Shown here: positions 20,763-44,316 of the stretch, piece by piece | Numbering within the stretch: position 1 is the first letter of the stretch | Layout: every line of letters starts with the position of its first letter | From: an uncultured Bacteroidota bacterium | GTDB taxonomy: Bacteria > Bacteroidota > Bacteroidia > Bacteroidales > M50B96 | Direction: 5' to 3' | Length of the DNA stretch: 64,000 nucleotides | NCBI GenBank assembly: GCA_937954085.1 | Contig: CALGAK010000025.1 | Span: 9,317-73,316, forward strand | Translations under genes and position numbers: made by a program | Notes under the pieces: model-generated | The model's input: only the letters and a program-made list of their open reading frames with translations | What the model was told of the DNA's origin: nothing | The model's database searches: none

Positions 20763-20780
20763 ACTTTTCAACCATAACAC

Positions 20781-22766: not shown

Positions 22767-22820
22767 AACACTGCAAATCAAGACCTAAACCACACTGACT
22801 TAACAAAACAAACATAAGCT

Positions 22821-24623: not shown

Positions 24624-24635
24624 GGAATAAGATAA

Positions 24636-31241: not shown

Positions 31242-32348
31242 ATGAACGAGCCACTGAAAACCTTAGCAACATTTATTTTTTCCCTACGCGCTTATATGAC
31301 CAAAGCCAGACTCGAGTCTGAAGGAATTGAAGTATTCCTTATGAATGAAAATTTCCGGTATGGTGCTCATGTTAACATCGAAGAGGGAATTCAACTCAAA
31401 GTTAAAGAATCCGATTATCCTCGTGCCTTCAAAATCCTACAAGAGATTAGTCCGAATTTCCTACAGGGCAAGGAAGAACGCAGGCCGAAAGTAGAGAAAA
31501 TCCTGGTGCCGGTAGATTTTTCGCCAGTTAGTTTTAAATCGTGCTTATTTGCTATCGACTTGGCAAAACGATTCAATGCCTCCATTACCATGTTCCATGT
31601 TTACTACCTCCCATCGATCGATGCCGTTCTGGTAAATGAATCGGCACTCTATAATTTATCCATTTCCGAGCAAATGAATAATATTCAGAAGAATGCCGAA
31701 AGAAAGATGAACGATCTCATCGAGGCCATTAATCTTCAAGGAGATAAAGGTGTGAAGGTAAACTTTCAGTTTGCCAAAGGCTTTCCCGACGATGAGATTT
31801 TATCCTTTGTAGATAAAAACCGACCTGATTTGATCATCATGGGTAATTCAGCCCGACTAGGCAAAAGCAAAAAGTTATATGGCAGCATCACTTCGGAAGT
31901 AACTGAAAATGTAAAGATTCCAGTTATAGTCATTCCGGATGGGCACGAAGGAACCAGTCCTGAGAAAATTCATCGTGTTGCCTATGTGAGTAATTTCGAC
32001 AAAAGTGATATTCGACCGGTTCATAAACTGTTATACCTCTTAAGTCCTTTTAAAGTTCACCTAGAGTTGATCCATCTGAGTGAACGAGGCAGTGGGTTAA
32101 GCACAGAAGAGGAATACAATCGCTTAATAAAAGTAATAGAACAGGAGTTTAAAGGAGCGAACTTCCACCTTACCATTATTTCAGGAAGGGACACATTACT
32201 GCAGCTACAAGAATTTATTTATGAGCATGGCGTTGACTTATTGAGTATACAGGCGCAGAAAAGAAGCTTTTTTAGCCGACTTTTCCGAACCACCCTAAGC
32301 GACAAGTTGCTTTTCAATTCTAAAATTCCATTCCTAATTTATCATTAA
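31242..32348 (+). CDS. Universal stress protein with tandem Usp domains and an N-terminal DUF2007-like domain
   Basis: The N-terminal ~70 aa (…AYMTKARLESEGIEVFLMNEN…) resembles the DUF2007 putative signalling fold. Two UspA-like units follow (KILVPVDFSP… and …RVAYVSNFDKSD…). The start is the first ATG; the track uses TTG at 31233. Confidence 0.8.
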   Translation: MNEPLKTLATFIFSLRAYMTKARLESEGIEVFLMNENFRYGAHVNIEEGIQLKVKESDYPRAFKILQEISPNFLQGKEERRPKVEKILVPVDFSPVSFKSCLFAIDLAKRFNASITMFHVYYLPSIDAVLVNESALYNLSISEQMNNIQKNAERKMNDLIEAINLQGDKGVKVNFQFAKGFPDDEILSFVDKNRPDLIIMGNSARLGKSKKLYGSITSEVTENVKIPVIVIPDGHEGTSPEKIHRVAYVSNFDKSDIRPVHKLLYLLSPFKVHLELIHLSERGSGLSTEEEYNRLIKVIEQEFKGANFHLTIISGRDTLLQLQEFIYEHGVDLLSIQAQKRSFFSRLFRTTLSDKLLFNSKIPFLIYH

Positions 32349-33040
32349 CCAATTCGGCTTATTTCATTGAGAGCTGCAACATTGAGGACATCAATTGAAT
32401 CGCCGTTTACACGAATAATTTTATCGTCCTTGAACTGTTTTAAGATTCGAATGGCACTTTCCTTTGATAGAGCAGTCATATCGGCGAGCTCTTGGCGAGT
32501 AAGGGTCATTTTAAATGGGTTCTCCTGATAGATATCGTTCAAAAGATACAGTAGAGCATCGGCCACCCTTCCTGGCATTTGCTTTTGAGTGAGGCTGATA
32601 AACTTTTGGAAGTTATTCAGTGTATCGAGGTTAGAATTTTTATGTGCATCTACTGCGAAATCAGGATTTTCATTCATGACCTTTTTAAACACCCCCATTT
32701 CAATAAAGCATGCTTTAGAATCTTCGACTGCTCTCACTGTAAAATGATGTTTGAAGTCGGTGTATAATCCTGGCCCTCCCACAAACTCACCCGGTTTTAT
32801 GAGTTTTAAAATGATGTTACGATTATTAAACCCTTCGATATAAACCTTTGCAAGGCCGGAGGTAAACGACATGAGGTGCGTCATGGCTGTGCCCTGTTTA
32901 AAAATGATTTCACCGGCATAGTATCGAGCATCGTAGCGATGCTCATTGAACAGCTTTAACTCTTCTTTTGAAAGATTTGTAAAAACGGTCGATTTCTTAA
33001 TACAATCTAGGCAGTTACATGTAGTATTTACCATAAACAA
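32345..33040 (-). CDS. Crp/Fnr-family transcriptional regulator with FNR-like cysteine pattern
   Basis: A cNMP-binding-like beta-roll plus a C-terminal HTH (…LTRQELADMTALSKESAIRILKQF…). The N-terminal C8-x-C10-xx-C13 plus C111 resembles the 3+1 Cys ligand layout of FNR [4Fe-4S] sensors. Confidence 0.85.
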   Translation of the reverse strand: MFMVNTTCNCLDCIKKSTVFTNLSKEELKLFNEHRYDARYYAGEIIFKQGTAMTHLMSFTSGLAKVYIEGFNNRNIILKLIKPGEFVGGPGLYTDFKHHFTVRAVEDSKACFIEMGVFKKVMNENPDFAVDAHKNSNLDTLNNFQKFISLTQKQMPGRVADALLYLLNDIYQENPFKMTLTRQELADMTALSKESAIRILKQFKDDKIIRVNGDSIDVLNVAALNEISRIG

Positions 33041-33349: not shown

Positions 33350-33718
33350 ATGACAAGAAGAAAATCAACTTTACTTTGGACTTTGGCCTTGCTCTTGTTC
33401 GCAATCAGCTCTTGCGAGTACACCAACATTGAGCCCATCGAAGTAGTTTTACCCGATGAAAAAGTCTCCTTCAGCGAGGAAATTGCTCCCGTTTTAGCAT
33501 CCAAATGTGCCTCCTGCCACCAATCGGTTGCTCCTATTTTAAGTGCCGGTAACGAATACAACAATCTAATCAATGGTGGATACATTAACCTTGATGCACC
33601 CGCTGAAAGTATTCTTTACACGAAAACCTCTGGAGGTCATCCGGCAGGTAGCGGTTTAACAGCTACAGAACAAGCTATCATTCTTAAGTGGATTGAAGAA
33701 GGTGCTGAAAACAACTAA
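33350..33718 (+). CDS. Monohaem c-type cytochrome-domain lipoprotein (PSCyt1-like)
   Basis: Lipoprotein signal LLLFAISSC. It has a single CASCH haem-c motif in the context F-x-EEIAPVLASKCASCH, which resembles the 'IxPIL…CxxCH' Planctomycete-type cytochrome c domain. Confidence 0.65.
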   Translation: MTRRKSTLLWTLALLLFAISSCEYTNIEPIEVVLPDEKVSFSEEIAPVLASKCASCHQSVAPILSAGNEYNNLINGGYINLDAPAESILYTKTSGGHPAGSGLTATEQAIILKWIEEGAENN

Positions 33719-33751
33719 TCAAAATTGGTAAACACATTTAAGTAACAAACA

Positions 33752-34630
33752 ATGGGTACAATGAAGAAACTATTAACCTTACTAGTTATGGGGATATTGC
33801 TCGGAAGCAGTATGCTCACCTTTGCACAAGAGGAAAATGAAGAAAAAGATATGCGTCCGGTTCGTTTCGATTGGGCAACAACCATCCTTATCGATCACCA
33901 AACCGTGAAGAATCTTCCGCAAGGAACTTGGCAATACATGATTTACCACCGATTTGGTAAAATGGACAAAGGAATTTCCGATTTTTGGGGAATTTATGCT
34001 CCCTCCAACATTTCAATGGGAATCCACTATGGTATTACCAATAAGTTATCGGTAGGAATTAGTTCCGAGAAGAACAACAAACTTCAAAGCCTTAACTGGA
34101 AATACAATATCATTAACCAAACAAGGGGTGGAACCATTCCCGTGAGTGTTGCCTACGTCGGTAATATGAGCGTCGATACACGTCCTGATGAAGTTTTCGG
34201 TCAAAATTATGAACTAACCAACCGATTTTCCTACAACCACTCGCTTATCGTAGCCAGAAAATTCAATGATCGTTTAAGTTTACAAGCCGCTGTGGATTAC
34301 ACCCACTTTAATAGTGTGGAAGAACTCACTCGTCACGATGTTATTGCATGGCACTTAGGTGGTAGGTATCGTTTCATTGGAGAGAATTCAATTGTATTTG
34401 AGTACACAAGCCCGATGGACGTAAACCTAAACGGTTATTCAAACATTGATGAGTTCAATCCTCTTGCTGAACCAGGATTATCTTTCGGATGGGAATGGGG
34501 AACAAGTACTCACGCCTTCCAGTTCTTTGCCTCAACCTATGAGCACATTGTTGCACAAAAAAATATTGCCTTCAATAAAAATGAAATAGGCGACTTCTTA
34601 CTAGGATTCAATATCACTGTAAGATTCTAA
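33752..34630 (+). CDS. DUF5777-family beta-barrel protein (probable outer membrane)
   Basis: Signal peptide …SSMLTFAQ. It has the YHRFG…G…DFWG… and …HYGITNKLSVGISSE… pattern I associate with DUF5777, alternating beta-strand periodicity, and ends in …NITVRF (terminal aromatic). Confidence 0.7.
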   Translation: MGTMKKLLTLLVMGILLGSSMLTFAQEENEEKDMRPVRFDWATTILIDHQTVKNLPQGTWQYMIYHRFGKMDKGISDFWGIYAPSNISMGIHYGITNKLSVGISSEKNNKLQSLNWKYNIINQTRGGTIPVSVAYVGNMSVDTRPDEVFGQNYELTNRFSYNHSLIVARKFNDRLSLQAAVDYTHFNSVEELTRHDVIAWHLGGRYRFIGENSIVFEYTSPMDVNLNGYSNIDEFNPLAEPGLSFGWEWGTSTHAFQFFASTYEHIVAQKNIAFNKNEIGDFLLGFNITVRF

Positions 34631-34655
34631 ACCACCCGAAGGGGTGTTCATTTCA

Positions 34656-34690
34656 CCAATGGCAGTTTCTCAAAGCTGCCATTGGTTTTT
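34656..34690 (+). terminator. Terminator-like hairpin after the DUF5777 gene
   Basis: CCAATGGCAG-N10-CTGCCATTGG followed by TTTTT. A second small hairpin, CACCC-GAAG-GGGTG, lies just upstream. Confidence 0.5.
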
Positions 34691-34772
34691 AAACTAAGCT
34701 CAACAACTATTTATCATACCGAACTGAATTCCCGGACAAGAATTCAGAAACTAATTAACGAACCAAAAGCGA

Positions 34773-35747
34773 ATGAAAACACTAATTAATTTAAGCTTAT
34801 TAAGTTTGGTCGTTGCCCTTTTATGTTCAGCCAATATCCCGACTAACGATGAAATGGCAGTAGGCCAACCAAGCGAAGAGGTAATTGAAGCCAACAATTT
34901 GTGCTTCTCTTGCCACGGACAAAAACTCTTTACATACTATAATCCTGAACTCGACCGAGAGATAAAGGATAATATGTGTGACGAAAAAATTGTCAACGAA
35001 GAAAAATTCTACCTGAGTAATCACCGAACCTTCCAGTGTATTGGTTGCCATTCGGCCGATTATGAAAGCTTCCCCCACCCTGGCGAATTGCGGTTTGAAC
35101 AACAATATGCCTGCAACGACTGTCACGGTTACGACGATGATTGGGCTCATTTCAAATTCGATGAAATTGAAGAAGAGTTCATGAAATCCGTTCATTCCAC
35201 CAATCACGACGAAGCATTTACTTGCTGGATGTGTCACGACCCACACGAATATCATATCACCTATCGTAACGAAGAGAATCTGTTGAACACGATTGCCTAC
35301 GACAATGGTATTTGCCTCACCTGCCATGCCGATGTGAATCGTTACCAACTTTTAACCGATAAAGAAAAACCTAACGTAGATCAACAACACAGCTGGTTGC
35401 CCAACCAACAATTGCATTTTACTAAGGTTCGTTGCATCGAATGCCATGCAGAGCTTAACGACAATGTTCTAGTAGCTCATAATATTAGACCGAAAGAAGA
35501 AGCCGTAAAAAAATGTGTAGAATGTCATTCGAGCGATAGTCGATTAATGGCTTCTTTATACAGCCACACGGTTAAAACAGAACGTTGGTCGGGCGGATTT
35601 GTCAATGGAGAAATGGTTACGCAAGGTTTTGTTATTGGAGCTAACCGAAACAAATACCTGAACCAGGGCAGCTTGTATATCTTTCTGGGTACCTTAGCCA
35701 TTATCCTCATTCATTCAATTTTACGTGCAATTTATATTAAGAAATAA
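34773..35747 (+). CDS. Heptahaem c-type cytochrome with C-terminal membrane anchor
   Basis: Signal peptide plus seven CxxCH motifs (CFSCH, CIGCH, CNDCH, CWMCH, CLTCH, CIECH, CVECH). A C-terminal hydrophobic helix (LYIFLGTLAIILIHSILRAIY) is present. 324 aa. Confidence 0.85.
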   Translation: MKTLINLSLLSLVVALLCSANIPTNDEMAVGQPSEEVIEANNLCFSCHGQKLFTYYNPELDREIKDNMCDEKIVNEEKFYLSNHRTFQCIGCHSADYESFPHPGELRFEQQYACNDCHGYDDDWAHFKFDEIEEEFMKSVHSTNHDEAFTCWMCHDPHEYHITYRNEENLLNTIAYDNGICLTCHADVNRYQLLTDKEKPNVDQQHSWLPNQQLHFTKVRCIECHAELNDNVLVAHNIRPKEEAVKKCVECHSSDSRLMASLYSHTVKTERWSGGFVNGEMVTQGFVIGANRNKYLNQGSLYIFLGTLAIILIHSILRAIYIKK

Positions 35748-35748
35748 G

Positions 35749-36360
35749 ATGGGAACAAGAATTTATTTATATCCGGGTTGGTTAAGATTTTGGCATGCAA
35801 TTAATGCCCTGATGTGTTTGGTGCTGATAGTATCCGGACTTAGCATGCAGTACACCGATTTTGAACGCTACATTTTGGATTTCCAGTTAGCTGTTCAGCT
35901 ACACAATATTGCTGGTGTAATTCTATCCTTTAATTACTTCATTTTCCTCTTCGGGAACTTGTTTACACCCAATGGTCGCCAATACTTTTTATTTCGTCGC
36001 GGTGTTCTGAAAAACCTGTTTACACAGCTACACTATTATACCTTGGGAATCTTCAGAAAAGAAGCTACACCCTTCCCTATCACAACGGAAAATAAGTTCA
36101 ATCCTATTCAACGTACAGCCTACGTGTTGGTTGGATATGTTGCTACCATCATTGTTATCGTTACCGGATGGGCTTATCTATTTCCTGAAATCGTTCCAAA
36201 TACTATTGGGAATGTTAGTGGGCTTTTAATAAACGACCTAATTCATATCTCGATGGGGTATTTCATTTCGATCTTTCTGATCATTCATATTTACTTCATT
36301 ACGATTGGAAATACTAAGATGAAAAATTTCAAGAGCATGGTTACCGGTTGGCACGAGTAA
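35749..36360 (+). CDS. Membrane b-type cytochrome (PhsC / Ni-Fe-hydrogenase cytochrome b-like)
   Basis: Four TM helices carry conserved-looking His residues (RFWHAIN, QLHNIAG, LIHISMG, IIHIYF), consistent with two b haems. The ATG lies 2 nt after the heptahaem stop; the track ORF starts at 35725 in the overlap. Confidence 0.65.
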   Translation: MGTRIYLYPGWLRFWHAINALMCLVLIVSGLSMQYTDFERYILDFQLAVQLHNIAGVILSFNYFIFLFGNLFTPNGRQYFLFRRGVLKNLFTQLHYYTLGIFRKEATPFPITTENKFNPIQRTAYVLVGYVATIIVIVTGWAYLFPEIVPNTIGNVSGLLINDLIHISMGYFISIFLIIHIYFITIGNTKMKNFKSMVTGWHE

Positions 36361-36418
36361 GTGCCGATGCGTCCCTTTTGACTTTTTTCCATTACTCACT
36401 CAAACAAACAAACAAACT

Positions 36419-37387
36419 ATGACAGCGAAAAATGAAAGCCGCCGGAGCTTCCTGAAAGCCGGACTTTCGCTGAGTGCTGGCGCTGCTTTAGGCGCAGCTG
36501 CCCTCAGTGGAAGAGCCGATAGCATGGATGCTCCGTCTGAAAAAATTAAGTTGGTAACGGCCGATGGAAGAGTGATTGAGGTGGAGAAGTACGATTTATC
36601 GATCGACGACCGTAACCCGGCGAGCATTGAAAAGTCTCATTACGGACTACCCGGAAGGAAGTTTGTGATGGTCATTGACTTAGCAAAATGCAAAAATGCC
36701 AGGAAGTGTGTCGAAAAATGTCAAGAGGGACATTACTTACCAGAGGACCATGAGTGGTTGAATATTTATTTGCTGAAAGATAGTCCTGAAAGTGCACCCT
36801 ACTGGTTTCCGCGGCCCTGCTTTCAGTGCGATAATCCATTGTGCGTTAGTGTTTGCCCGGTAGGTGCAACCTTTAAACGAACCGATGGCATCGTTTTAGT
36901 CGATACCGACCGATGCATTGGATGCAAGTTTTGTATGACAGGATGTCCATATTCAGCGCGTGTTTTCCATTGGCATGAACCTGAAGTGGAGGTTCCCGAG
37001 GGTACCGTTTACAGTCCTGAAACGGCCTATCCTGCTGAAGAAGGAACAGTTGGGAAATGTGTTTTTTGTGCCGATTTACTGCGTAAGAACGAACTACCTC
37101 GCTGCGTTGTAGCTTGTCCGGAAGGGGTCATCTATTTTGGCGATTTGAATGAAGACACAGTGACTAATGGTGTGGAAACCATGGTTTTTAGCGAATTGAT
37201 AAAAAACCGATCCGGTTATCGATACCATGAAGATTTAGGAACACGCCCAAGTGTTTATTATCTACCTCCGGTAGACAGACTCTACGAGGTAGAGGAAGGT
37301 TTCTCCCTTCATGCTGAGAATCCTGAGATCCTAGAGCGATACAAGAACACTGAAACCTACAAAAAATACTTTGGCGATGGACATTAA
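36419..37387 (+). CDS. Tat-exported 4x[4Fe-4S] ferredoxin subunit (NrfC/PsrB/DsrO-like)
   Basis: Twin-arginine signal SRRSFLKAG. Cys clusters CKNARKCVEKC, CFQCDNPLCVSVCP, CIGCKFCMTGCP and CVFCADL…CVVACP. 322 aa. Confidence 0.85.
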   Translation: MTAKNESRRSFLKAGLSLSAGAALGAAALSGRADSMDAPSEKIKLVTADGRVIEVEKYDLSIDDRNPASIEKSHYGLPGRKFVMVIDLAKCKNARKCVEKCQEGHYLPEDHEWLNIYLLKDSPESAPYWFPRPCFQCDNPLCVSVCPVGATFKRTDGIVLVDTDRCIGCKFCMTGCPYSARVFHWHEPEVEVPEGTVYSPETAYPAEEGTVGKCVFCADLLRKNELPRCVVACPEGVIYFGDLNEDTVTNGVETMVFSELIKNRSGYRYHEDLGTRPSVYYLPPVDRLYEVEEGFSLHAENPEILERYKNTETYKKYFGDGH

Positions 37388-38708
37388 TAACACCCTTACC
37401 ATTGATGGAGCAATCAAGGAATTCGCTCCTCAAATAGAGAAAACCTCCCCACTAGGTTGGTCGTGGATTACTTTCCTGTCGGTTCTGGTCTTATTCGGGT
37501 TCTATGGATTATACACTCAAATAGCCGAAGGGCACATCGTTACCGGTATGCGCGACAATGTTGTATGGGGAATCTATATTGTTAACTTCATCTTCTTCAT
37601 GGGAGTTAGCTACGCTGGAGCACTCATTTCCGGAACCTTGCATCTCTTTCGATCCGAATGGAGAAAGCCCGTTATCCGGATGGCTGAGTGGATTACGATT
37701 ATTTCTCTTTTAATAGGCCCATTGTATATTCTTTTGTGTATCGGACGACTCGACAAATTGCATAATATAGCCTTGTTTGGTAGGATTCAATCGCCCATTA
37801 CATGGGACGTTATTGCAATCTCGACGGATATTGTAGGATGTATCATCTTCCTCTACATGGCTCTTTTACGCGATTTTGCTCACTTAAGAGATTATCCGGA
37901 ATTGAAAGTTCCCAAATGGAAAAAGAAACTCTATTATTATTTCGCTCTCAAGTACCATGATACCCCGGAACAACGGAAAAAATTAAACCGGACGGTCGAT
38001 ATCATGGCTGCGATGGTCATTGCGATTGCCATTATTGTGTACTCGGTACTTGCATGGATTTTCAGTGTTACCCTCCAACCAGGTTGGCACAGCACTATTT
38101 TTGGGCCCTATTTCGTAATTGCTGCTGTCTATTCTGGCACAGCTGTACTCATTGTGAGCATGTATTTATTCCGCAAGGTATACAAGTTAGAACATGTCAT
38201 AACCGAGCTTCATTTCAAGAACATGGGAATCATTCTCCTGGTGTTAGGAGCATTTTTTGGTTACTTCACCTTCTCTGAGTATCTCACGAAATGGTATGGA
38301 TCGCAAAAGAACGATGAATTACTAATCAGTATCTTATTCGACAAATATTATTGGGAATTTGTGATCTCAAATTATATTGGTGTTCTTTTACCTCTAATCA
38401 TTATAGGAATACCAAAGTTTAGGACCATTAAGTCTATTACATTTACCTCGTTGGTAGTGATATTAGCCTTGTGGCTAAATCGTTATCTTATTGTGGTTCC
38501 TACGCTTGAATCCCCTTATTTACCTATTCAAGACAGTCGCAGTGCATGGGTTGATTATGGCGGGACATGGGTCGAATGGTCGCTTACCCTGGGCGGGATA
38601 GCCGGTTTTTTGCTCTTATTTACTTTAGCGTCCAAGCTAGTTCCGATTGTGCAGCTTTCGGCTTTGGTCAAAAAAGATAAGTCGGAAGAGAATCGAAAAT
38701 CGGAGTAA
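37377..38708 (+). CDS. NrfD/PsrC-family polytopic quinone-interacting membrane subunit
   Basis: ~440 aa with about 10 TM helices. The N-terminal region …GHIVTGMRDNVVWGIYIVNFIFFMGVSYAGALISG is typical of NrfD-like proteins. The ATG overlaps the FeS gene stop by 11 nt, which suggests translational coupling. Confidence 0.8.
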   Translation: MDINNTLTIDGAIKEFAPQIEKTSPLGWSWITFLSVLVLFGFYGLYTQIAEGHIVTGMRDNVVWGIYIVNFIFFMGVSYAGALISGTLHLFRSEWRKPVIRMAEWITIISLLIGPLYILLCIGRLDKLHNIALFGRIQSPITWDVIAISTDIVGCIIFLYMALLRDFAHLRDYPELKVPKWKKKLYYYFALKYHDTPEQRKKLNRTVDIMAAMVIAIAIIVYSVLAWIFSVTLQPGWHSTIFGPYFVIAAVYSGTAVLIVSMYLFRKVYKLEHVITELHFKNMGIILLVLGAFFGYFTFSEYLTKWYGSQKNDELLISILFDKYYWEFVISNYIGVLLPLIIIGIPKFRTIKSITFTSLVVILALWLNRYLIVVPTLESPYLPIQDSRSAWVDYGGTWVEWSLTLGGIAGFLLLFTLASKLVPIVQLSALVKKDKSEENRKSE

Positions 38709-38740
38709 TTAGTTTTTTAATCAACTTAAGCCCAGGAACT

Positions 38741-39619
38741 ATGAAAACGAAAATATTTTTTATCATCGCCAGTTTACTCCTTCCATTTGGAATGAAGCTG
38801 GCTGCAAGCGAACCCTACTCGTTAAGCTTTTACCTTGAATATCGGAAGTTAGCCGAAGGTGAGCGAAAAATATCGGCAACGGCTAAGTATAAACCCGACC
38901 GATTCTGGGAGGTAATACAAGGGATGAAGGTAGAGTTCTATTACTTAAACGAAGAAGGAGATGAAGTCCTTTTGGCCGATGGTATAACCGACGAAAAAGG
39001 AACAGCCAGCATCCTTATTGATCCTGAATATCCTTTATATCGAAATGAGGAAGGGTTAATCGAATTTGTTGCAAGAACCGAAGAAACCGAAAAATATGAG
39101 CTTGCGGAGGAATGGCTCTCTATTCGAGATATATATCTAGAAATGAAGCTAATTGAAGATGGCGACGAACGAACCATTGAATTACATGCAGAAGTTTTAG
39201 ATGAAAACGGAGAGCTTGTCCCCTTATCCGACGAGGATATCTATTTTTCAGTCCCACGGATGTTTAGTAAACTTCCACTTGGAGAAGAAACGCTAGAAGA
39301 TGGCTTCTGTTCCATAACATTTCCAGCGAATATCGTTGGGAATGCTGAACGAGAAGTAACTATATTAGCGGAGATTTTTGAGCATTATGAATTTGGAACC
39401 GTTCAAGCGAGTAAGGTTTCCACTTGGGGAAAACTCGGTAGTCCTCACTTAATTGAACATCCTTCCCGGGAGCTTTGGACACCCGTTGCACCATTATGGA
39501 TGATTATCACCCTGATTGTGCTTTTGGTTGGAGTTTGGGGACATTATATTTACGCAATTGTGCAACTGGTTCTGATTCGGAAAGCAGGCACAAGATTTGA
39601 AAGAGAACAACAGGTTTAA
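38741..39619 (+). CDS. Hypothetical acidic periplasmic protein with C-terminal TM anchor
   Basis: Signal peptide, then a Glu/Asp-rich beta-rich body with Ig-like repeats (…KGTASILIDPEY…). It ends in a TM helix (LWMIITLIVLLVGVWGHYIYAIVQLVLI). I recognise no family. It is embedded in the cytochrome operon. Confidence 0.5.
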   Translation: MKTKIFFIIASLLLPFGMKLAASEPYSLSFYLEYRKLAEGERKISATAKYKPDRFWEVIQGMKVEFYYLNEEGDEVLLADGITDEKGTASILIDPEYPLYRNEEGLIEFVARTEETEKYELAEEWLSIRDIYLEMKLIEDGDERTIELHAEVLDENGELVPLSDEDIYFSVPRMFSKLPLGEETLEDGFCSITFPANIVGNAEREVTILAEIFEHYEFGTVQASKVSTWGKLGSPHLIEHPSRELWTPVAPLWMIITLIVLLVGVWGHYIYAIVQLVLIRKAGTRFEREQQV

Positions 39620-39657
39620 AACCGACTATTAATTATTAACACTTAAAACGAAAAACT

Positions 39658-40056
39658 ATGAAAACTAGAATTCTTAGCATTTTTGCGCTAGTAATGGTTA
39701 GCATGCTCGTTGTAGGCTTTATGCCCAGCGCCCAAGACGGATGGGACATTCCGGAAAAGTATCAGAAAATGAAAAACACCCTAGAACCAAACGATGAGAA
39801 CATCGCAATTGGTAAGAAACTGTATAACAAGCATTGTCGTTCTTGCCATGGAACCAAAGGCTTAGCCGATGGACCGAAAGCTGCCAACATGAGAACTCCT
39901 ATGAGAAGCCTTGCTGGTGCCGAATACAAAGCTCAGTCGGATGGCGTGAAGTATTACAAATCGTTTGTTGGGAAAGATGAAATGCCCAACTTCGAAAAGA
40001 AAATCACCGAGGAAGAAGATCGTTGGGCTATTATTAATTACATGGAAACTTTATAG
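39658..40056 (+). CDS. Class I monohaem cytochrome c
   Basis: Signal peptide, a single CRSCHG motif in the context GKKLYNKHCRSCHG, and a distal Met candidate (…KDEMPNF…). 132 aa. Confidence 0.8.
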   Translation: MKTRILSIFALVMVSMLVVGFMPSAQDGWDIPEKYQKMKNTLEPNDENIAIGKKLYNKHCRSCHGTKGLADGPKAANMRTPMRSLAGAEYKAQSDGVKYYKSFVGKDEMPNFEKKITEEEDRWAIINYMETL

Positions 40057-40086
40057 TGTTTTCATAACTAACTAGCTGTTAGATAA

Positions 40087-40119
40087 AGAGGATGTCGAAT
40101 GACATCCTCTTTTTTTTTT
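40087..40119 (+). terminator. Rho-independent terminator closing the cytochrome/NrfCD operon
   Basis: Perfect 10-bp stem AGAGGATGTC-GAAT-GACATCCTCT followed by 9 T. Confidence 0.75.
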
Positions 40120-40190
40120 CAATCCATGATGATATTTGCTAAGCCTTGAGAAAGACTAAATTAACTAGCTGATTGAATTCGCTATCCTCA

Positions 40191-40303: not shown

Positions 40304-41314
40304 ATGAAAAAAATTCTGACTTTATTGACCAGCAGCTTGTTTTTAGCAGGCATGGTTTTTACCAGTTGCGAAGGACCTCAGGGGCCCGAAGGACCGCAAG
40401 GACCAGCAGGTGAAATTGGAGCTTTAACTTGTGTGGAATGCCACGACTTCAGCACCGATTTATTTGCAAAAGTTTTACAGTACGAAAATTCCACCCACGT
40501 AACCGGTGGAAACTACAATCGTAACTACGGCGAATGTGCAATTTGCCATACACACGAAGGTTATATTGATAACTTAGAAACCGGTGCTGGTACTTCCGAT
40601 GCTGCTTTAGTTAATACTACTCACATTAACTGCCGCACTTGCCACATGATCCATGAGAACTACGATGCAACCGACTGGGATTTACGCGAAACTGAAGCAA
40701 CCACCTTCTTTACAGGTGTTGCAGCTCCCGACATGGGAACCGGTAATCAGTGTGCTTCTTGCCACAAATCTCGTGCTTACGACGTTCCTGAAATTGGCGG
40801 ACCCGATGTTGAGATTACCAGCAGCCGTTATGGCCCACACTATGGTGTTCAAACCGATATGATGGCTAGCCATGGCTTATATGAATTCCCTGGCAGTTTA
40901 AGCTATCCGAGTAACAATCCTCACGGAAACCTTGCTAACGGTTGTGTTAGTTGTCATATGGCTCCCGGATATGTTGACCAATCAGGCGGACACACCTTCA
41001 CAATGAGAAATGAATCAGAAGCGTTGAATATGACCAGCTGTACCGATTGCCACGGTAGCCTTACTTCTGAAGATGTAGATGCTTTCCAAGCTGAAATTCA
41101 TGTTTTATATGATTCATTATTCAACACCCTAGTTGCTAAAGGCTTAATGAATGAAACAACTGGTTTAGTTGTTACTGGAACAGTATCGGGTAGCGAAGCT
41201 GCTGCTATCGCTAACTATCGTACCATTTATGGCGACCATAGTTTTGGTCTTCACAACCCAGGTTACATTAAAGCTATCCTAAACAATACCTTAGAAGCTG
41301 CTCAAGATTTCTAA
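40304..41314 (+). CDS. Hexahaem c-type cytochrome lipoprotein with collagen-like Gly-X-Y linker
   Basis: Lipobox MVFTSC, then GPQGPEGPQGPAGEIG (five G-X-Y triplets). Six CxxCH motifs follow (CVECH, CAICH, CRTCH, CASCH, CVSCH, CTDCH). 336 aa, monocistronic, between two terminators. Confidence 0.85.
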   Translation: MKKILTLLTSSLFLAGMVFTSCEGPQGPEGPQGPAGEIGALTCVECHDFSTDLFAKVLQYENSTHVTGGNYNRNYGECAICHTHEGYIDNLETGAGTSDAALVNTTHINCRTCHMIHENYDATDWDLRETEATTFFTGVAAPDMGTGNQCASCHKSRAYDVPEIGGPDVEITSSRYGPHYGVQTDMMASHGLYEFPGSLSYPSNNPHGNLANGCVSCHMAPGYVDQSGGHTFTMRNESEALNMTSCTDCHGSLTSEDVDAFQAEIHVLYDSLFNTLVAKGLMNETTGLVVTGTVSGSEAAAIANYRTIYGDHSFGLHNPGYIKAILNNTLEAAQDF

Positions 41315-41371: not shown

Positions 41372-41452
41372 CAAAAAAAAATTAAACAACCTTTCAAGTT
41401 ATAATTCCTATCCTACATTTGCATCGTTGTTGCATTTAAAAACGCATTGCAA

Positions 41453-41887
41453 ATGAAACCTATTGACATCTTAAACGAAACCCATCTCAAACGAACCAGC
41501 TGTAGAGAGGGAATTTTAAAAGTAATGCTTGAATCGAATGAGGCACTTTCCGAGAACGAGATACGGGAGCGCTTGGAAGGTAACTACGATCGAACGACCT
41601 TCTATCGATCATTCAAAACCTTGGAAGAGAACCACATCGTGCACAAAATTATAATCGATGCCAGTCTTACCAAGTATGCTCTTGAAGAACAGTATCTGGA
41701 AATAGGTCCGTTACATTCAGAGAAAGAAACAACATCGATGCATGCTCATTTTCATTGTCAGCAATGCAATACGGTAAAATGCATTCCATTAAAAGACTGT
41801 CCTACCCCTGTGCTGCCAGAAGGCTACCTCATCGATCATTTTGAATTAATCGTAAAGGGAACGTGCCAACTATGCAATTTGAATTAA
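41453..41887 (+). CDS. Fur-family metalloregulator (Fur/Zur type not resolvable)
   Basis: Winged-helix N-terminus (…RTSCREGILKVMLES…LSENEIRERL…DRTTFYRSFKTLEE…) and C-terminal HAHFHCQQC…CQLC metal sites. The first ATG was chosen; the track uses TTG at 41447. The stop lies 1 nt before the next gene. Confidence 0.8.
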   Translation: MKPIDILNETHLKRTSCREGILKVMLESNEALSENEIRERLEGNYDRTTFYRSFKTLEENHIVHKIIIDASLTKYALEEQYLEIGPLHSEKETTSMHAHFHCQQCNTVKCIPLKDCPTPVLPEGYLIDHFELIVKGTCQLCNLN

Positions 41888-41888
41888 G

Positions 41889-44285
41889 ATGTCGATCGTA
41901 GTTCGAAGCTATCTTTTCTTCAACCTGCTGATTATTTCGAATTATCTAGTGGCGCAAAGCCGGATTCACGGGCGGGTTTATGATCAGGAAGGTAAGGCCC
42001 TGACAGGAGCTATCGTACAGGTGAAAGAAAAACCAGAGGTCGTGATGACTGATTCCTTGGGACGGTTTTCAACTTCGGGACTTCCTCCAGGATTCTACAC
42101 CCTTCAGGTAAGCTTTATGGGATGCACAAATCAAAGCCTTCGTGTGTCCTTGCAAGAAAACAGCGAATATCTCGAGGTACATCTTCAACCGTCTCCTTAT
42201 CAACTAAATGAAATTACCATTCAAGAGAAGAACCTCTCCGAAAATACTTCTCCTCCATTTGGCCCATCCGTGGAAGTATCGGCCAATTTCCTTCAACGAT
42301 ACGATCAAGGCAGTTTAATGCAATCCCTTTCGCGACTGGGAGGTGTTCAAAGTCAAAGCATTGGCTCCGGTACCTCCAAGCCAATGATTCGTGGATTAGG
42401 CAGTAATCGCTTGGTAGTGACTGAAAATGGAGTAAAACATGAAAGTCAGCAGTGGGGAATGGATCATGGGCTCGAAATGGATCAATATTCAGCCGATAAA
42501 GTAAAGGTTATACAAGGACCTTCTTCCTTGAAATATGGTTCAGATGCACTAGCAGGAATCATTGAAGTTCAGTCATTTTCGCCTGTTTTGAATCAAGGAT
42601 TTAGAGGTAAATTGAATGCACACACCCATTCCAATTCCGGGCGCTTAGGTTCTCATTTAACTCTTAGCTGGAGCGACAGCACCTATCATGTTGAAATGAA
42701 AGCCGGAGGAACTCGTTATGGCGATTACACTGTACCGGGCGATAGCGTTGATATCTATTCCTTTCGTATCCCTCTAGACGAGGGGCGATTGAGGAATACC
42801 GCAGGGCGTGATCATAGTCTAAGCTTTGCATTTTTTCGTCAGGGAGAGCAAGCCGATCAGCGTTTGCAATTGAGTTATTATTTTCAACAAGCTGGATTTT
42901 TTGCCAATGCGCATGGGATTGAACCCAGGAGCGTTGACTATTCCCTCCACGACCGCAGCAATTGGGACATTCTCCTTCCTCAATTTTGGGTAAAGCATTA
43001 TAAATTCCATTACATGAACGACAGAAAAATTGGTTCATGGAGTCTGAAACAATCCTTCGCCTATCAGTTTAACCACCGCGAGGAGTTAAGCGAATATACA
43101 CAACATGGGTTCATGCCTGCGAGCCTGCCCGATTCCTTATCCTATTGGAGCGAACTGGATCGGTCCTTTAAAAAGCACAGCTATCATTATCAGCTCATTA
43201 CTCATTATCAGCAAGGAAATCGCTGGCAGTTTGAGCAAGGACTTGCGTTTGAAGGACAACGGAATCGGATTGGAGGTCGTAGTTTTTTACTTCCCAATTT
43301 CAATCAGCTAGGTGGAGGCATTTTTTCGACTGCTAGGTATCAATTGTCTTCTTATCATAGCATAAGTGGTGGGTTTCGGATCGATGCAATGCAACTTAAA
43401 AGCGAGCAGCATGCCGATTGGTTTGCCACTCCCCTTCTACATGATGTGGAATCCGAGCCCGTTTATCTGATGCGCTCCAGTGAATTGGAAAAAACCTTTA
43501 TGAACTACGCATGGAGTATTTCTTATGAATGGGAAACCGTGGATCGAGCCATTGCGATACATTTAGGAAGAAGTTTTCGCAATCCAATTGCCAAAGAATT
43601 GGCTGCTAATGGCGTCAATTATCACTATTTTAGTTATGAGATTGGCAATCCTGATTTAGATCAGGAGGTTGCTTATCAGGGTGATGTAAATCTTCGATGG
43701 AGTAACACATTCATTGAACTACAGATTAATCCATTTCTCGGATACTTCGAAAATTACCTTTTTCTGGATCCTACCTCCGAATATGATCAATTGTATGGAC
43801 AAGGAAATCAGGTATTCAGGTATTCAGAAGCTGCTGTTTTACGAACCGGAGGTGAAGTAACGCTCCTGACCAGGTTCAGCTCGAATTGGATGCTTGGAAA
43901 CACCACTGAGTATTTGTACACGGAACAATTGAGCGGCACTAAGCTTGGGTATCCCCTTCCCTTTTCTCCGCCGCTTAGCAGTTTGTGGAGCCTAAGTTAT
44001 GAAATGGATTATCAACAAGAAAGGGCTATTCGTTTTGAATTGGACTATCAGCTAGTAGCAGCACAAACTCGCATTGTAGCACCCGAGTTCATTACTCCTT
44101 CCTACCAATTATTTGGCTTTAGAGCACAGGCTGATTTTAGTCTTTTCGGGCAAGAATTTACATCCAGCTTTCAAATCCAAAATTTGCTCAATACCCGCTA
44201 TTGGAATCATACTTCCCTGTATCGACTCATGAATTTGCCTGAGATGGGACGAAATATTCAGATTAGTCTTCACTATATTTTCTAG
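41889..44285 (+). CDS. TonB-dependent receptor with N-terminal CarboxypepD_reg domain
   Basis: N-terminal …GRVYDQEGKALTGAIVQV…TDSLGRFS…LPPGFYTLQVSFMG, plug motifs (…PMIRGLGSNRLVV…NGVKHE…) and a C-terminal barrel ending …ISLHYIF. 798 aa. Confidence 0.85.
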   Translation: MSIVVRSYLFFNLLIISNYLVAQSRIHGRVYDQEGKALTGAIVQVKEKPEVVMTDSLGRFSTSGLPPGFYTLQVSFMGCTNQSLRVSLQENSEYLEVHLQPSPYQLNEITIQEKNLSENTSPPFGPSVEVSANFLQRYDQGSLMQSLSRLGGVQSQSIGSGTSKPMIRGLGSNRLVVTENGVKHESQQWGMDHGLEMDQYSADKVKVIQGPSSLKYGSDALAGIIEVQSFSPVLNQGFRGKLNAHTHSNSGRLGSHLTLSWSDSTYHVEMKAGGTRYGDYTVPGDSVDIYSFRIPLDEGRLRNTAGRDHSLSFAFFRQGEQADQRLQLSYYFQQAGFFANAHGIEPRSVDYSLHDRSNWDILLPQFWVKHYKFHYMNDRKIGSWSLKQSFAYQFNHREELSEYTQHGFMPASLPDSLSYWSELDRSFKKHSYHYQLITHYQQGNRWQFEQGLAFEGQRNRIGGRSFLLPNFNQLGGGIFSTARYQLSSYHSISGGFRIDAMQLKSEQHADWFATPLLHDVESEPVYLMRSSELEKTFMNYAWSISYEWETVDRAIAIHLGRSFRNPIAKELAANGVNYHYFSYEIGNPDLDQEVAYQGDVNLRWSNTFIELQINPFLGYFENYLFLDPTSEYDQLYGQGNQVFRYSEAAVLRTGGEVTLLTRFSSNWMLGNTTEYLYTEQLSGTKLGYPLPFSPPLSSLWSLSYEMDYQQERAIRFELDYQLVAAQTRIVAPEFITPSYQLFGFRAQADFSLFGQEFTSSFQIQNLLNTRYWNHTSLYRLMNLPEMGRNIQISLHYIF

Positions 44286-44316
44286 AACAAACAGCTAGTT
44301 ATACAAATCAAATCAG

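What the first reader, a model, noticed from the sequence alone, without database searches (positions are those of the whole stretch)
34773..40119. Core six-gene operon combines two different quinone-interacting membrane subunits (cytochrome b and NrfD-like) with a heptahaem cytochrome
Seen: the genes are tightly packed. The cytochrome b ATG lies 2 nt after the heptahaem stop, and the NrfD-like ATG overlaps the FeS stop by 11 nt. The other gaps are 30-60 nt. The block is bracketed by a terminator-like hairpin (34656-34690) and a strong terminator (40087-40119). Established: a PhsC-type cytochrome b and an NrfD-type subunit are normally alternative membrane anchors for periplasmic oxidoreductases. 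Having both in one operon, plus a membrane-anchored heptahaem cytochrome and a monohaem cytochrome c (ActE-like in size), is unusual. Inference: this may be a quinol:cytochrome c (ACIII/Qrc-like) module, or two coupled quinone sites.
Basis: partly seen in the sequence, partly recalled or inferred. Interest (0 to 1): 0.75.

Follow-up and report, generated by a model that had tools for sequence, protein, structure and literature searches.

The report
CbcBA-type cytochrome operon with extra NrfD module
This is a real, conserved respiratory operon of sediment Bacteroidales in which a known inner-membrane quinol-to-cytochrome pair (CbcA/CbcB, studied in Geobacter metal respiration) carries an optional second quinone-handling module that has not been described; this matters mainly to people who work on how bacteria send electrons outside the cell.

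Summary
The sequence observation holds. Six tightly packed + strand genes (34773-40056) lie between two strong hairpins: a seven-haem cytochrome c with a C-terminal membrane helix, a PF01292 dihaem cytochrome b, a Tat-exported FeS protein, an NrfD protein, a 292-aa unknown protein (here called P292) and a monohaem cytochrome c.

The six genes are not the evolutionary unit.
- In 80 related Bacteroidota genomes the constant core is: hexahaem lipoprotein, monohaem lipoprotein, DUF5777 beta-barrel, usually a monohaem c, then CbcA-CbcB.
- FeS-NrfD-P292 is an all-or-none triplet. It sits directly after cbcB in 21 of 59 informative loci and is absent from the other 38.
- In the reverse search, all 34 informative P292 loci also carried CbcA and CbcB.

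Closest relatives:
- The b/heptahaem pair is the Bacteroidota counterpart of Geobacter CbcBA, which is a known system.
- The NrfD protein is closest to ActC of alternative complex III (E 2e-55). The locus nevertheless fails ACIII, Qrc, Dsr and Nrf membership.
- P292 is a new subunit: two Ig-like domains plus an almost invariant His-bearing membrane helix.

Best reading: an extracellular-electron-transfer cluster in which two quinol dehydrogenase modules with different energetic coupling feed one cytochrome chain. I class it as a new variant of known kinds, of moderate interest.

The parts
32345..33040 (-). Crp/Fnr-family regulator (context; a conserved neighbour of the cluster)
   Evidence: The identical gene in L001 has Pfam cNMP_binding + HTH_Crp_2. 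A Crp homologue lies beside the cluster in most related loci.
33350..33718 (+). 122-aa monohaem (CASCH) lipoprotein; part of the conserved core
   Evidence: Lipobox-like ISSC and one CxxCH motif. Present upstream of cbcA in 59 of 66 loci.
33752..34630 (+). DUF5777 membrane beta-barrel protein with a signal peptide; part of the conserved core, presumably in the outer membrane
   Evidence: PF19089, E 2e-68. Present in 65 of 66 loci.
34655..34686 (+). Terminator-like hairpin followed by UUUUU, between the barrel gene and cbcA
   Evidence: -21.3 kcal/mol, z = -5.4; 0 of 200 shuffles fold as well.
34773..35747 (+). CbcA-like heptahaem cytochrome c: signal peptide, 7 CxxCH, and a C-terminal membrane helix carrying a conserved His (IHxxLR)
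   Evidence: Seven CxxCH in 113 of 116 homologues, with a conserved His in the tail helix. A profile of the family has as its best PDB hit 28pb_A 'Cytochrome c', E 1.9e-6.
35749..36360 (+). CbcB-like dihaem cytochrome b: 4 membrane helices and four invariant His (H16, H52, H166, H180)
   Evidence: PF01292, E 9e-24. NCBIfam PhsC scores 139.5 bits, below the 204-bit cut-off. Invariant His residues. Hydropathy.
36419..37387 (+). Tat-exported four-cluster ferredoxin-like FeS protein; its first Cys motif is CxxAxxCxxxC, so one [3Fe-4S] cluster is predicted
   Evidence: The second Cys is replaced by Ala in 70 of 71 homologues, and the Tat RRxF[LIVM] motif is present in 70 of 71.
37377..38708 (+). 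NrfD-family membrane subunit with 10 predicted helices; closest solved relative is ActC of ACIII
   Evidence: PF03916, E 7e-32. 6f0k_C E 2.4e-55 and 6btm_C E 8e-47, both full length. Residue mapping onto ActC. Hydropathy.
38741..39619 (+). P292: new subunit with a signal peptide, two Ig-like beta-sandwich domains and one long membrane helix carrying the near-invariant motif WTPxAPLWM...GVWGHY
   Evidence: No Pfam, NCBIfam or PDB sequence hit. Homologues are all annotated 'hypothetical'. Conservation. AlphaFold2 model with pLDDT 91.2. Foldseek finds only generic Ig or macroglobulin folds.
39658..40056 (+). Class I monohaem cytochrome c (CRSCH), c552-like
   Evidence: PF00034 and PF13442. PDB c552 E 1.9e-13, ActE only E 1.7e-3. 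Usually found upstream of cbcA in relatives.
40085..40122 (+). Intrinsic terminator: 12-bp stem followed by a run of 10 T
   Evidence: -18.2 kcal/mol, z = -5.6.
40304..41314 (+). Hexahaem lipoprotein cytochrome with similarity to MtrC/MtrF domains II/IV; part of the conserved core, usually placed at the head of the cluster in relatives
   Evidence: Six CxxCH and lipobox FTSC. PF22113, E 1.6e-8. Present in all but one of the 52 loci that have both flanks.

Best explanation
The block is the inner-membrane end of a conserved Bacteroidota (and KSB1) cluster for extracellular electron transfer.

Core module, as in Geobacter CbcBA:
- CbcB is a dihaem cytochrome b that exchanges electrons with the menaquinone pool.
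- CbcA is a seven-haem cytochrome c held on CbcB by its C-terminal helix. It passes electrons into the periplasm.
- From there the route runs through a small cytochrome c to an outer-membrane DUF5777 barrel with its monohaem lipoprotein, and then to a surface hexahaem lipoprotein.

Optional second module. In about one third of related genomes, this one included, a second quinone module is co-inherited, and probably co-transcribed, directly after cbcB. It consists of:
- a periplasmic FeS protein with a predicted [3Fe-4S] cluster;
- an ActC-like NrfD subunit that keeps most of the proposed proton-channel residues of ActC;
- P292, a single-helix Ig-like protein.

Inferred mechanism. The two modules are parallel menaquinol:cytochrome c oxidoreductases with different energetic coupling.
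- CbcB, like PhsC and FdnI, carries electrons across the membrane between a cytoplasmic-side quinone site and periplasmic haems. That costs or yields membrane potential.
- NrfD has a periplasmic-side quinone site, so the reaction is electroneutral or proton-translocating.
- Having both lets the cell match energy conservation to the potential of the external acceptor, as Geobacter does with separate loci (ImcH, CbcL, CbcBA).

Shown here: gene content, conservation, co-inheritance and family relationships. Inferred: direction of electron flow, sidedness of the quinone sites, and whether the two modules touch.
For: Anatomy and transcription unit.

CbcBA relationship.
- The literature description of CbcA (seven haems, C-terminal anchor) and CbcB (thiosulfate-reductase-like dihaem b), and the statement that homologues exist in Prolixibacter, Marinilabiliales and Labilibaculum.
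- The genome scan returns Labilibaculum, Marinifilum, Draconibacterium and Prolixibacteraceae loci with the same pair at 47-53% identity.
- A profile of the heptahaem family hits PDB 28pb_A, E 1.9e-6, aligning haem motifs 2-6 and a shared WLPxxxLH motif. A 2026 review cites a solved CbcA structure.

Core versus accessory parts.
- CbcA in 66 of 66 loci, DUF5777 in 65 of 66, small lipoprotein in 59 of 66.
- The triplet in 21 of 59 loci, absent from 38, never partial.
- From the P292 side, 34 of 34 loci carry CbcAB.
- Pairwise distances of the five proteins correlate at r = 0.86-0.94 in 59 loci.

NrfD module.
- ActC E 2.4e-55.
- Kept relative to ActC: W82, I86, F89, D169; 8 of 13 mapped cytoplasmic half-channel residues; 4 of 6 periplasmic ones.
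- Conserved CxxAxxCxxxC motif and Tat signal in the FeS protein.

Precedents for NrfCD-type quinol dehydrogenases feeding extracellular electron transfer: Shewanella SirCD and Geobacter CbcSTU.

Iron-related neighbours in the window: a Fur-like regulator, TonB-dependent receptors and FeoAB.
Against: - No experiment exists on any Bacteroidota member, so function and direction are inferred.
- The class I monohaem cytochromes and the barrel-plus-monohaem pair would fit an electron-uptake (Fe(II)-oxidising) chain equally well.
- ActC's proposed quinol ligands His139 and Asp253 are replaced by an invariant Cys and Ile. The quinone chemistry of this NrfD may therefore differ, or the site may be elsewhere.
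- Geobacter regulation (sigma-54/BccR) is not shared; a Crp/Fnr regulator is present instead.
- A direct alignment with GSU0593/0594 was not possible. That 28pb is the CbcA structure is inferred from a near-identical code printed in the review ('2BPB').
- The tight, obligate linkage of the triplet to cbcB fits one physical complex as well as it fits two parallel modules.
Confidence: 0.55

Rival explanations
1. One composite supercomplex. CbcA, CbcB, FeS, NrfD and P292 assemble into a single membrane machine with two quinone sites on opposite faces of the membrane, analogous to DsrMKJOP or Hmc. The conserved His-bearing helix of P292 sits between NrfD and CbcB. Electrons from quinol oxidised at NrfD pass through the FeS clusters to the CbcA haems. 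Some leave for the periplasmic chain and some return through the b haems to reduce quinone on the cytoplasmic side. That would be a quinone loop, or a Q-cycle-like device.
For: - The triplet is all-or-none, lies directly after cbcB in 33 of 34 loci, and was never found without CbcAB.
- There is no terminator-like structure between cbcB and the FeS gene.
- The five proteins co-vary as tightly across the two modules as within them.
- The membrane helix of P292 is far more conserved than its periplasmic domains and carries an invariant His.
- Quinone cycling between a dihaem b module and an NrfD module has been proposed for DsrMKJOP (PMC8076601).
Against: - CbcAB works without the triplet in 64% of related loci and in other phyla. 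In Geobacter, cbcA and cbcB alone restore the mutant phenotype.
- In triplet-less loci the slot after cbcB is filled by unrelated genes, including 18-19-haem and 6-haem cytochromes. That suggests a plug-in position rather than an obligate subunit set.
- Correlated distances are expected for any genes inherited together in the same genomes.
- No structural prediction of the assembly could be run.
Confidence: 0.22
2. Same hardware run in the opposite direction: an electron-uptake (Fe(II) or other extracellular donor) pathway. Electrons enter through the barrel and its monohaem lipoprotein and pass to the periplasmic cytochrome c. They are then pushed onto menaquinone through CbcAB and/or the ActC-like module, either generating or consuming membrane potential.
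For: - A small monohaem cytochrome next to a beta-barrel recalls Cyc2-type iron oxidases (my recollection, not tested here).
- The monohaem cytochromes are of the class I, c552-like type, which are usually of high potential.
- FeoAB, a Fur-like regulator and TonB-dependent receptors are neighbours in the window.
- Geobacter CbcA exchanges electrons reversibly with its partners.
Against: - The only characterised homologue, CbcBA, acts in Fe(III) reduction.
- Per Joshi et al., cultured genera with the cluster are described as metal reducers.
- The iron-uptake neighbours are not conserved: the window's Fur-like protein found no counterpart in the other loci.
- No oxidase or carbon-fixation genes are seen in the window.
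Confidence: 0.15
3. The FeS-NrfD-P292 triplet is the membrane anchor of a conventional periplasmic reductase (Psr/Nrf/Ttr-like) whose catalytic subunit is encoded elsewhere. On this view it is unrelated in function to CbcAB.
For: The FeS protein's best solved match is PsrB (2vpw_B, E 6.6e-26). NCBIfam lists TtrB, NrfC and DmsB among its hits.
Against: - No molybdopterin or NrfA gene lies in the window cluster or in any of the roughly 55 triplet-bearing loci.
- All of those NCBIfam hits are far below their cut-offs.
- The NrfD protein is of the 10-helix ActC type. PsrC does not appear among its PDB hits at E <= 1.
- The triplet is always linked to CbcAB.
Confidence: 0.05

Closest known systems
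Geobacter sulfurreducens CbcBA (core of the Cbc5 cluster, GSU0593-0594)
   Same: - A seven-haem cytochrome c with a C-terminal membrane helix carrying a conserved His, encoded immediately upstream of a thiosulfate-reductase-like (PF01292) four-helix dihaem cytochrome b.
- The genes are translationally coupled.
- Homologues in Marinilabiliales-type Bacteroidota are already noted in the literature.
   Different: - No sigma-54/BccR regulation; a Crp/Fnr regulator is the neighbour instead.
- The genes downstream are FeS-NrfD-P292, not the multihaem CbcC/CbcD and the membrane protein CbcE.
- The pair is embedded in a cluster with a DUF5777 barrel and lipoprotein cytochromes.
- All four b-haem His ligands are in CbcB here. 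Joshi et al. report three conserved His for Geobacter CbcB.
Alternative complex III (ActABCDEF)
   Same: - The NrfD subunit aligns over its full length with ActC (E 2.4e-55), has 10 predicted helices and keeps many proton-channel residues.
- It pairs with a Tat-exported FeS protein predicted to hold one [3Fe-4S] and three [4Fe-4S] clusters.
- c-type cytochromes are encoded in the same operon.
   Different: - No molybdopterin-like B1 domain, no ActF, no two-helix ActD and no pentahaem ActA.
- ActC residues His139, Asp253 and Ser245 are replaced.
- The [3Fe-4S] signature lies in a different Cys motif from that of R. marinus ActB, which keeps CxxCxxCxxxC at that position.
- A dihaem cytochrome b is present, which ACIII lacks.
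DsrMKJOP (from my own knowledge, not checked here, HmcABCDEF has the same feature)
   Same: - One gene cluster combines a dihaem cytochrome b, an NrfD-type subunit, a periplasmic FeS protein and a multihaem cytochrome c, giving two candidate quinone sites.
- DsrO is the best NCBIfam hit for the FeS protein (173 bits), and DsrP is the only NCBIfam hit for the NrfD protein.
   Different: - From my own knowledge, the cytochrome b of Dsr is of the NarI/HdrE type, not PF01292.
- There is no cytoplasmic DsrK/HmcF-type subunit here.
- Both NCBIfam scores are below their cut-offs (173 versus 200 bits; 80 versus 350 bits).
- The context is outer-membrane cytochromes rather than sulfite reduction.
NrfCD-type quinol dehydrogenases of extracellular electron transfer (Shewanella SirCD, Geobacter Cbc4/CbcSTU)
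   Same: An FeS protein plus an NrfD subunit, with no catalytic subunit, passing electrons between the quinone pool and periplasmic multihaem cytochromes.
   Different: Those systems stand alone or carry their own small cytochrome. They are not fused into an operon with a cytochrome b module, and they have no P292-like subunit. Sequence relationship to them was not tested here.

Membership tests
CbcBA (Geobacter Cbc5 core) | Seven-haem c-type cytochrome anchored by a C-terminal transmembrane helix | tested here: met
   Seven CxxCH and a hydrophobic helix at residues 299-317. Seven motifs in 113 of 116 homologues, with a conserved His in the helix.
CbcBA (Geobacter Cbc5 core) | Adjacent thiosulfate-reductase-like four-helix dihaem cytochrome b | tested here: met
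   PF01292 E 9e-24. PhsC model 139.5 bits, the best NCBIfam hit but below its cut-off. Four invariant His. Four hydrophobic regions. One base between the two genes.
CbcBA (Geobacter CbcA/CbcB proteins) | Sequence homology to Geobacter CbcA/CbcB themselves | tested here: inconclusive
   The Geobacter sequences could not be obtained. A profile of the heptahaem family hits PDB 28pb_A 'Cytochrome c' (278 aa), E 1.9e-6. This is probably the CbcA structure that a review cites as '2BPB'. Joshi et al. name Labilibaculum and Prolixibacter homologues, and those genera appear in the scan.
CbcBA (Geobacter Cbc5 core) | Sigma-54-dependent operon with a divergent BccR regulator | tested here: not met
   The flanking regulator is Crp/Fnr-type. 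No sigma-54 activator domain was found in the flanking genes scanned.
Cbc5 cluster (cbcEDCBA) | Downstream multihaem CbcC and CbcD and membrane protein CbcE | tested here: not met
   The downstream genes are an FeS protein, NrfD and P292 with its Ig-like domains.
Alternative complex III | ActC-type ten-helix NrfD subunit | tested here: met
   6f0k_C E 2.4e-55 and 6btm_C E 8e-47, both full length. Ten hydrophobic regions.
Alternative complex III | ActB with a molybdopterin-like B1 domain fused to the FeS B2 domain | tested here: not met
   The FeS protein is 322 aa and matches only residues 796-993 of the 1039-aa ActB.
Alternative complex III | Second NrfD-like subunit ActF, two-helix ActD and pentahaem ActA | tested here: not met
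   The cluster has a single NrfD gene. P292 has one membrane helix, Ig-like domains and no PDB sequence hit. The multihaem protein has seven haems and a C-terminal anchor.
Alternative complex III | Conserved ActC quinol-site residues His139, Asp169 and Asp253 | tested here: not met
   Only Asp169 is kept. His139 is replaced by Cys and Asp253 by Ile, both invariant across 59 family members.
Alternative complex III | Monohaem ActE subunit | tested here: inconclusive
   ActE matches are weak (E 1.7e-3 and 1.8e-3), while c552 matches at E 1.9e-13. The gene usually sits upstream of cbcA, independent of the NrfD module.
QrcABCD | QrcC and QrcD orthology plus a molybdopterin-like QrcB | tested here: not met
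   The QrcC model scores 122 bits against a cut-off of 400. No molybdopterin-like gene is present.
DsrMKJOP | DsrO and DsrP orthology, a NarI-type DsrM and a cytoplasmic DsrK | tested here: not met
   DsrO scores 173 bits against a cut-off of 200. DsrP scores 80 against 350 and covers residues 22-163 only. The cytochrome b is PF01292. No DsrK-like gene is present.
NrfABCD / PhsABC / PsrABC | A catalytic subunit (NrfA or a molybdopterin enzyme) encoded with the FeS and membrane subunits | tested here: not met
   No such gene in the window cluster or in related loci. NrfC scores 113 bits against 378, and PhsC 139.5 against 204.

The most novel reading that the evidence does not exclude
CbcA, CbcB, the [3Fe-4S]-type FeS protein, the ActC-like NrfD and P292 form one supercomplex with quinone sites on both faces of the membrane. 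It would act as a functional analogue of a Q-cycle or quinone loop, built from modules unrelated to the bc1 complex, and would let a fermentative Bacteroidales conserve energy from extracellular electron transfer. The invariant His-bearing helix of P292 would be the physical and perhaps redox link between the two membrane subunits.
Probability: 0.15. Interest if true: 0.8.

Novelty: new variant of a known kind. Interest (0 to 1): 0.5.

Why it matters
- CbcBA is one of the few proposed marker systems for extracellular electron transfer outside the classical metal reducers.
- This work shows that in Bacteroidota the pair sits in a fixed cluster with a barrel protein and lipoprotein cytochromes. 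It also shows that one third of these clusters carry an undescribed FeS/ActC-like NrfD/Ig-helix module.
- That gives a concrete genetic system for two questions. First, how do non-Geobacter bacteria tune energy conservation to acceptor potential? Second, can NrfD-type and dihaem-b-type quinone modules cooperate?
- It adds a complex type that is missing from the 2021 catalogue of NrfD-containing enzymes, and a new conserved subunit family (P292).
- Natural carriers and non-carriers are both available for comparison. Draconibacterium orientale and Prolixibacteraceae MAGs carry the triplet. A Labilibaculum filiforme strain and Marinifilum MAGs lack it.

Tried and rejected
1. My first idea was that the whole operon equals Geobacter Cbc5, with CbcC/D as FeS/NrfD. 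That came from memory and is wrong: CbcC and CbcD are cytochromes and CbcE is a membrane protein.
2. I could not obtain the Geobacter CbcB sequence.
- The third homologue search, using a profile of distant PF01292 relatives, returned Deferribacteres, Thermodesulfobacterium and Syntrophobacteraceae hits but no named Geobacter protein.
- A cluster look-up gave only Magnetococcales and Thermodesulfobacteriota names.
The accepted scan returned only Bacteroidota among its best 80 of 419 hits, so spread outside the phylum rests on a few look-ups.
4. A single-sequence AlphaFold2 model of the heptahaem protein was useless (pLDDT 35.6), so no fold search was run on it.
5. Foldseek of the good P292 model found only generic Ig or macroglobulin folds (TM-scores <= 0.3). 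It found no ActD or other respiratory subunit.
6. A perfect 7+7 palindrome upstream of cbcA has no other close copy in the window, and looser matches are at chance level.
7. Literature searches for DUF5777 and for CbcBA in Bacteroidota found no description of this cluster.
8. The idea that the monohaem cytochrome is ActE was rejected on its position and its similarity scores.

Full report
**1. Observation**

| Gene product | Coordinates |
|---|---|
| Heptahaem cytochrome c | 34773-35747 |
| Cytochrome b | 35749-36360 |
| FeS protein | 36419-37387 |
| NrfD | 37377-38708 |
| 292-aa protein (P292) | 38741-39619 |
| Monohaem cytochrome c | 39658-40056 |

- The junctions are as described. One base lies between the heptahaem stop and the cytochrome b ATG. 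The FeS and NrfD genes overlap by 11 nt. The other gaps are 58, 32 and 38 nt.
- The first protein has seven CxxCH motifs, an N-terminal signal peptide and a C-terminal hydrophobic helix. The last has one CxxCH.
- Pfam assigns PF01292 to the cytochrome b, PF03916 to NrfD, and 4Fe-4S dicluster domains plus a Tat signal to the FeS protein. The 292-aa protein gets nothing significant.
- The bracketing hairpins fold far better than shuffled controls. The one at 34655-34686 gives -21.3 kcal/mol, z = -5.4, followed by U5. The one at 40085-40112 gives -18.2 kcal/mol, z = -5.6, followed by U10.
- The three internal gaps tested are unstructured.
- A single transcript is therefore plausible but not shown.

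**2. What the genes are**

*Cytochrome b*
- It is PhsC-like, but below the NCBIfam cut-off (139.5 against 204 bits).
- It has four hydrophobic regions and four His residues that are invariant across 36 diverse relatives (H16, H52, H166, H180).
- From my own knowledge, this is the FdnI/PhsC-type arrangement for two b haems.

*Heptahaem protein*
- It has only weak similarity to NrfB.
- A profile of 13 diverse family members has as its best PDB match 28pb_A 'Cytochrome c' (278 aa), E 1.9e-6. The alignment covers haem motifs 2-6 and a shared WLPxxxLH motif.
- A 2026 review cites a solved structure of Geobacter CbcA under the code '2BPB'. I think this is the same entry, but I could not verify it.

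*Literature on Geobacter CbcBA*
- CbcA is a seven-haem cytochrome with a C-terminal anchor. CbcB is a thiosulfate-reductase-like dihaem b.
- The pair is needed for Fe(III) reduction below about -0.21 V.
- Homologues are reported in Prolixibacter, Marinilabiliales and Labilibaculum.

*FeS protein*
- It has three standard four-Cys motifs. Its first motif reads CxxAxxCxxxC, where PsrB and R. marinus ActB have CxxCxxCxxxC.
- The Cys-to-Ala change and the Tat motif are each present in 70 of 71 homologues.
- I infer one [3Fe-4S] and three [4Fe-4S] clusters.

*NrfD protein*
- It aligns over its full length with ActC of alternative complex III: 6f0k_C E 2.4e-55 and 6btm_C E 8e-47. ActF matches only weakly, and PsrC does not appear at E <= 1.
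- It has ten hydrophobic regions.
- I mapped the residues that Sousa et al. (PMC5928083) propose for ActC:

| ActC feature | State in this family |
|---|---|
| Pocket residues W82, I86, F89, D169 | Kept |
| His139, Asp253, Ser245 | Invariant Cys, Ile, Ile |
| Cytoplasmic half-channel | 8 of 13 mapped residues kept |
| Periplasmic half-channel | 4 of 6 kept or conservatively replaced |

*P292*
- It has no match in Pfam, NCBIfam or PDB sequences. Its homologues are all annotated 'hypothetical'.
- A confident AlphaFold2 model (pLDDT 91.2) shows a signal peptide, two Ig-like beta-sandwiches and one long membrane helix. Foldseek finds only generic Ig or macroglobulin folds.
- Conservation is concentrated in the helix. 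The motif ELWTPxAPLWMxxTL...GVWGHY, including the His, is invariant or nearly so in 85 sequences.

*Monohaem cytochrome*
- It is c552-like (E 1.9e-13). Similarity to ActE is marginal (E 1.7e-3).

**3. Conservation and the real unit**

*From the CbcB side*
- A scan of one genome per species with a CbcB alignment found 419 relatives. The best 80 are all Bacteroidota, mostly MAGs. They include Labilibaculum filiforme, Marinifilum, Draconibacterium, Prolixibacteraceae and Lentimicrobiaceae.
- I located the window's proteins in these loci with tblastn. The upstream counts are out of 66 loci with enough upstream sequence:

| Feature | Loci |
|---|---|
| CbcA next to CbcB | 66 of 66 |
| DUF5777 barrel upstream | 65 of 66 |
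| 122-aa monohaem lipoprotein upstream | 59 of 66 |
| Monohaem cytochrome c between barrel and cbcA | 47 of 66 |
| MtrC-like multihaem lipoprotein in the locus (loci with both flanks) | 51 of 52 |

- A Crp/Fnr regulator is usually adjacent.
- FeS, NrfD and P292 lie directly after cbcB in 21 of 59 loci that have at least 4 kb of downstream sequence. All three are absent from the other 38. No locus had a partial set.

*From the P292 side*
- A metagenome scan with the P292 helix motifs gave 34 loci with enough upstream sequence.
- All 34 carry CbcA, CbcB, FeS and NrfD. In 33 the order is that of the window. One (L138) is rearranged.
- Carriers include a KSB1 MAG (L086). A Saprospiraceae-labelled contig (L087) carries P292 but is too short upstream to show the rest of the cluster.

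*Co-inheritance*
- On a CbcA+CbcB tree the triplet is clade-structured, with about nine gain or loss events among 58 taxa.
- Pairwise distances of all five proteins correlate at r = 0.86-0.94. This fits long co-inheritance with repeated loss rather than recent insertions.
- FeS and NrfD evolve more slowly (mean p-distance 0.29) than CbcA and CbcB (0.43-0.45). P292 evolves fastest (0.58).

*Alternatives in the same slot, and other phyla*
- In triplet-less loci the slot after cbcB holds other genes: a cytochrome of about 930 aa with 18-19 haems (7 loci), a hexahaem of about 500 aa (4 loci), or an unknown protein of about 240 aa (11 loci).
- In three loci reached through distant CbcB relatives, a multihaem c plus PF01292 b pair stands alone without NrfCD. 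Two are named Deferribacteres and Thermodesulfobacterium; the third is an unnamed metagenome contig.

*Conclusion*
- It consists of a known, independently viable pair (CbcAB), a dependent accessory triplet, and a cytochrome c that belongs to the wider core.

**4. Mechanism**

Shown:
- An envelope-spanning set of parts. The inner membrane has CbcB, NrfD and the helices of CbcA and P292. The periplasm has the CbcA haems, the FeS protein and the cytochrome c. The outer membrane and surface presumably have the DUF5777 barrel, the monohaem lipoprotein and the hexahaem lipoprotein.
- In this window the cluster has iron-related neighbours: a Fur-like regulator, two TonB-dependent receptors and FeoAB. 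These neighbours are not conserved in the other loci.

Inferred from established knowledge of FdnI/PhsC-type cytochromes b and of PsrC/ActC (my own knowledge):
- CbcB links a cytoplasmic-side quinone site to periplasmic haems, so its reaction moves charge across the membrane.
- NrfD has a periplasmic-side quinone site next to the membrane-proximal FeS cluster and may translocate protons.

Best reading (confidence 0.55):
- The two are parallel menaquinol:cytochrome c modules with different coupling that feed one cytochrome chain.
- They would act as low and high gears, comparable to the separate ImcH, CbcL and CbcBA routes of Geobacter.
- Shewanella SirCD and Geobacter CbcSTU are precedents for NrfCD-type feeders.

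Rivals:
- One supercomplex with quinone cycling, as proposed for DsrMKJOP (0.22).
- The same hardware running inward as an electron-uptake path (0.15).
- An anchor for an unlinked reductase (0.05).

**5. Comparison and membership**
- The locus meets the structural features of CbcBA. It does not share CbcBA's regulation or downstream genes.
- It shares one subunit type with ACIII. It fails ACIII on the B1 domain, ActF, ActD, ActA and two of the three quinol-site residues.
- All Qrc, Dsr, Nrf, Ttr and Phs models score below their curated cut-offs.
- The 2021 catalogue of NrfD-containing complexes (PMC8076601) lists no complex with a PF01292 cytochrome b and a heptahaem CbcA-type subunit.
- My literature searches found no description of this cluster or of DUF5777.

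**6. Verdict**
- Observation: confirmed.
- Interpretation: partly supported.
- Novelty: the CbcAB part is a new member of a known kind. The composite with FeS, ActC-like NrfD and P292 is a new variant built from known modules plus one new subunit family.
- Interest: moderate (0.5). It is a good, testable system for specialists in anaerobic respiration, but not a categorically new mechanism on present evidence.

Limits:
- No NrfD-side survey was done.
- No direct Geobacter alignment was possible.
- No assembly prediction could be run.
- The 36% figure applies only to the 80 best-matching species genomes.

Noticed in passing
window 33350-34630: A 122-aa monohaem lipoprotein (CASCH) is followed 33 nt later by a DUF5777 beta-barrel protein. 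The pair is conserved in nearly all related loci. Together they look like a split version of a fused cytochrome-porin such as Cyc2. That resemblance is from memory and was not tested. DUF5777 has no literature in the held library.
   Followed up: partly
window 34725-34746: A perfect palindrome, TGAATTC-N8-GAATTCA, lies between the upstream hairpin and the cbcA start. It could be a binding site for the neighbouring Crp/Fnr regulator. No other close copy exists in the window, and looser matches are at chance level.
   Followed up: partly
window 41447-46560 and 51821-54316: A Fur-like regulator, two TonB-dependent receptors and a fused FeoA-FeoB ferrous iron transporter lie just downstream of the cytochrome cluster. 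The window's Fur-like protein found no counterpart in the related loci. One related locus (L021) also has a TonB-type receptor after cbcB.
   Followed up: partly
L016, L020, L026, L027, L032, L034, L065 (about 50-2900 nt after cbcB): In seven triplet-less relatives the slot after cbcB holds a cytochrome of about 930 aa with 18-19 CxxCH motifs. This recalls the dodecahaem CbcC that follows cbcB in Geobacter. In 11 other loci a conserved unknown protein of about 240 aa occupies the slot.
   Followed up: partly
L086 6910-8970; L087 2435-5563; L089 13279-16389; L171 2276-4440: System II cytochrome c maturation genes (ResB and CcsA, in two cases fused into one protein of about 1040 aa) lie next to the cluster in several relatives. 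They are not next to it in the window.
   Followed up: no
one search hit list (P0124, P0131, P0135 and many others, 500-900 aa): Many representatives of the CbcB family are long proteins with the cytochrome b domain at the C-terminus. This is consistent with the cbcA-cbcB gene fusions that Joshi et al. report in Chloroflexi.
   Followed up: no
window 18349-25787: An upstream + strand block encodes a carboxyltransferase, an enoyl-CoA hydratase, a biotin carboxylase with a biotinyl domain, AtuA and an acyl-CoA dehydrogenase. It looks like an acyclic-terpene or leucine-type degradation cluster and is unrelated to the finding.
   Followed up: no
window 27543-30194 (-) and 13223-15007 (-): Two large ORFs (883 and 594 aa) have no Pfam match at E <= 1e-5. 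The 883-aa protein looks like a multi-pass membrane protein.
   Followed up: no
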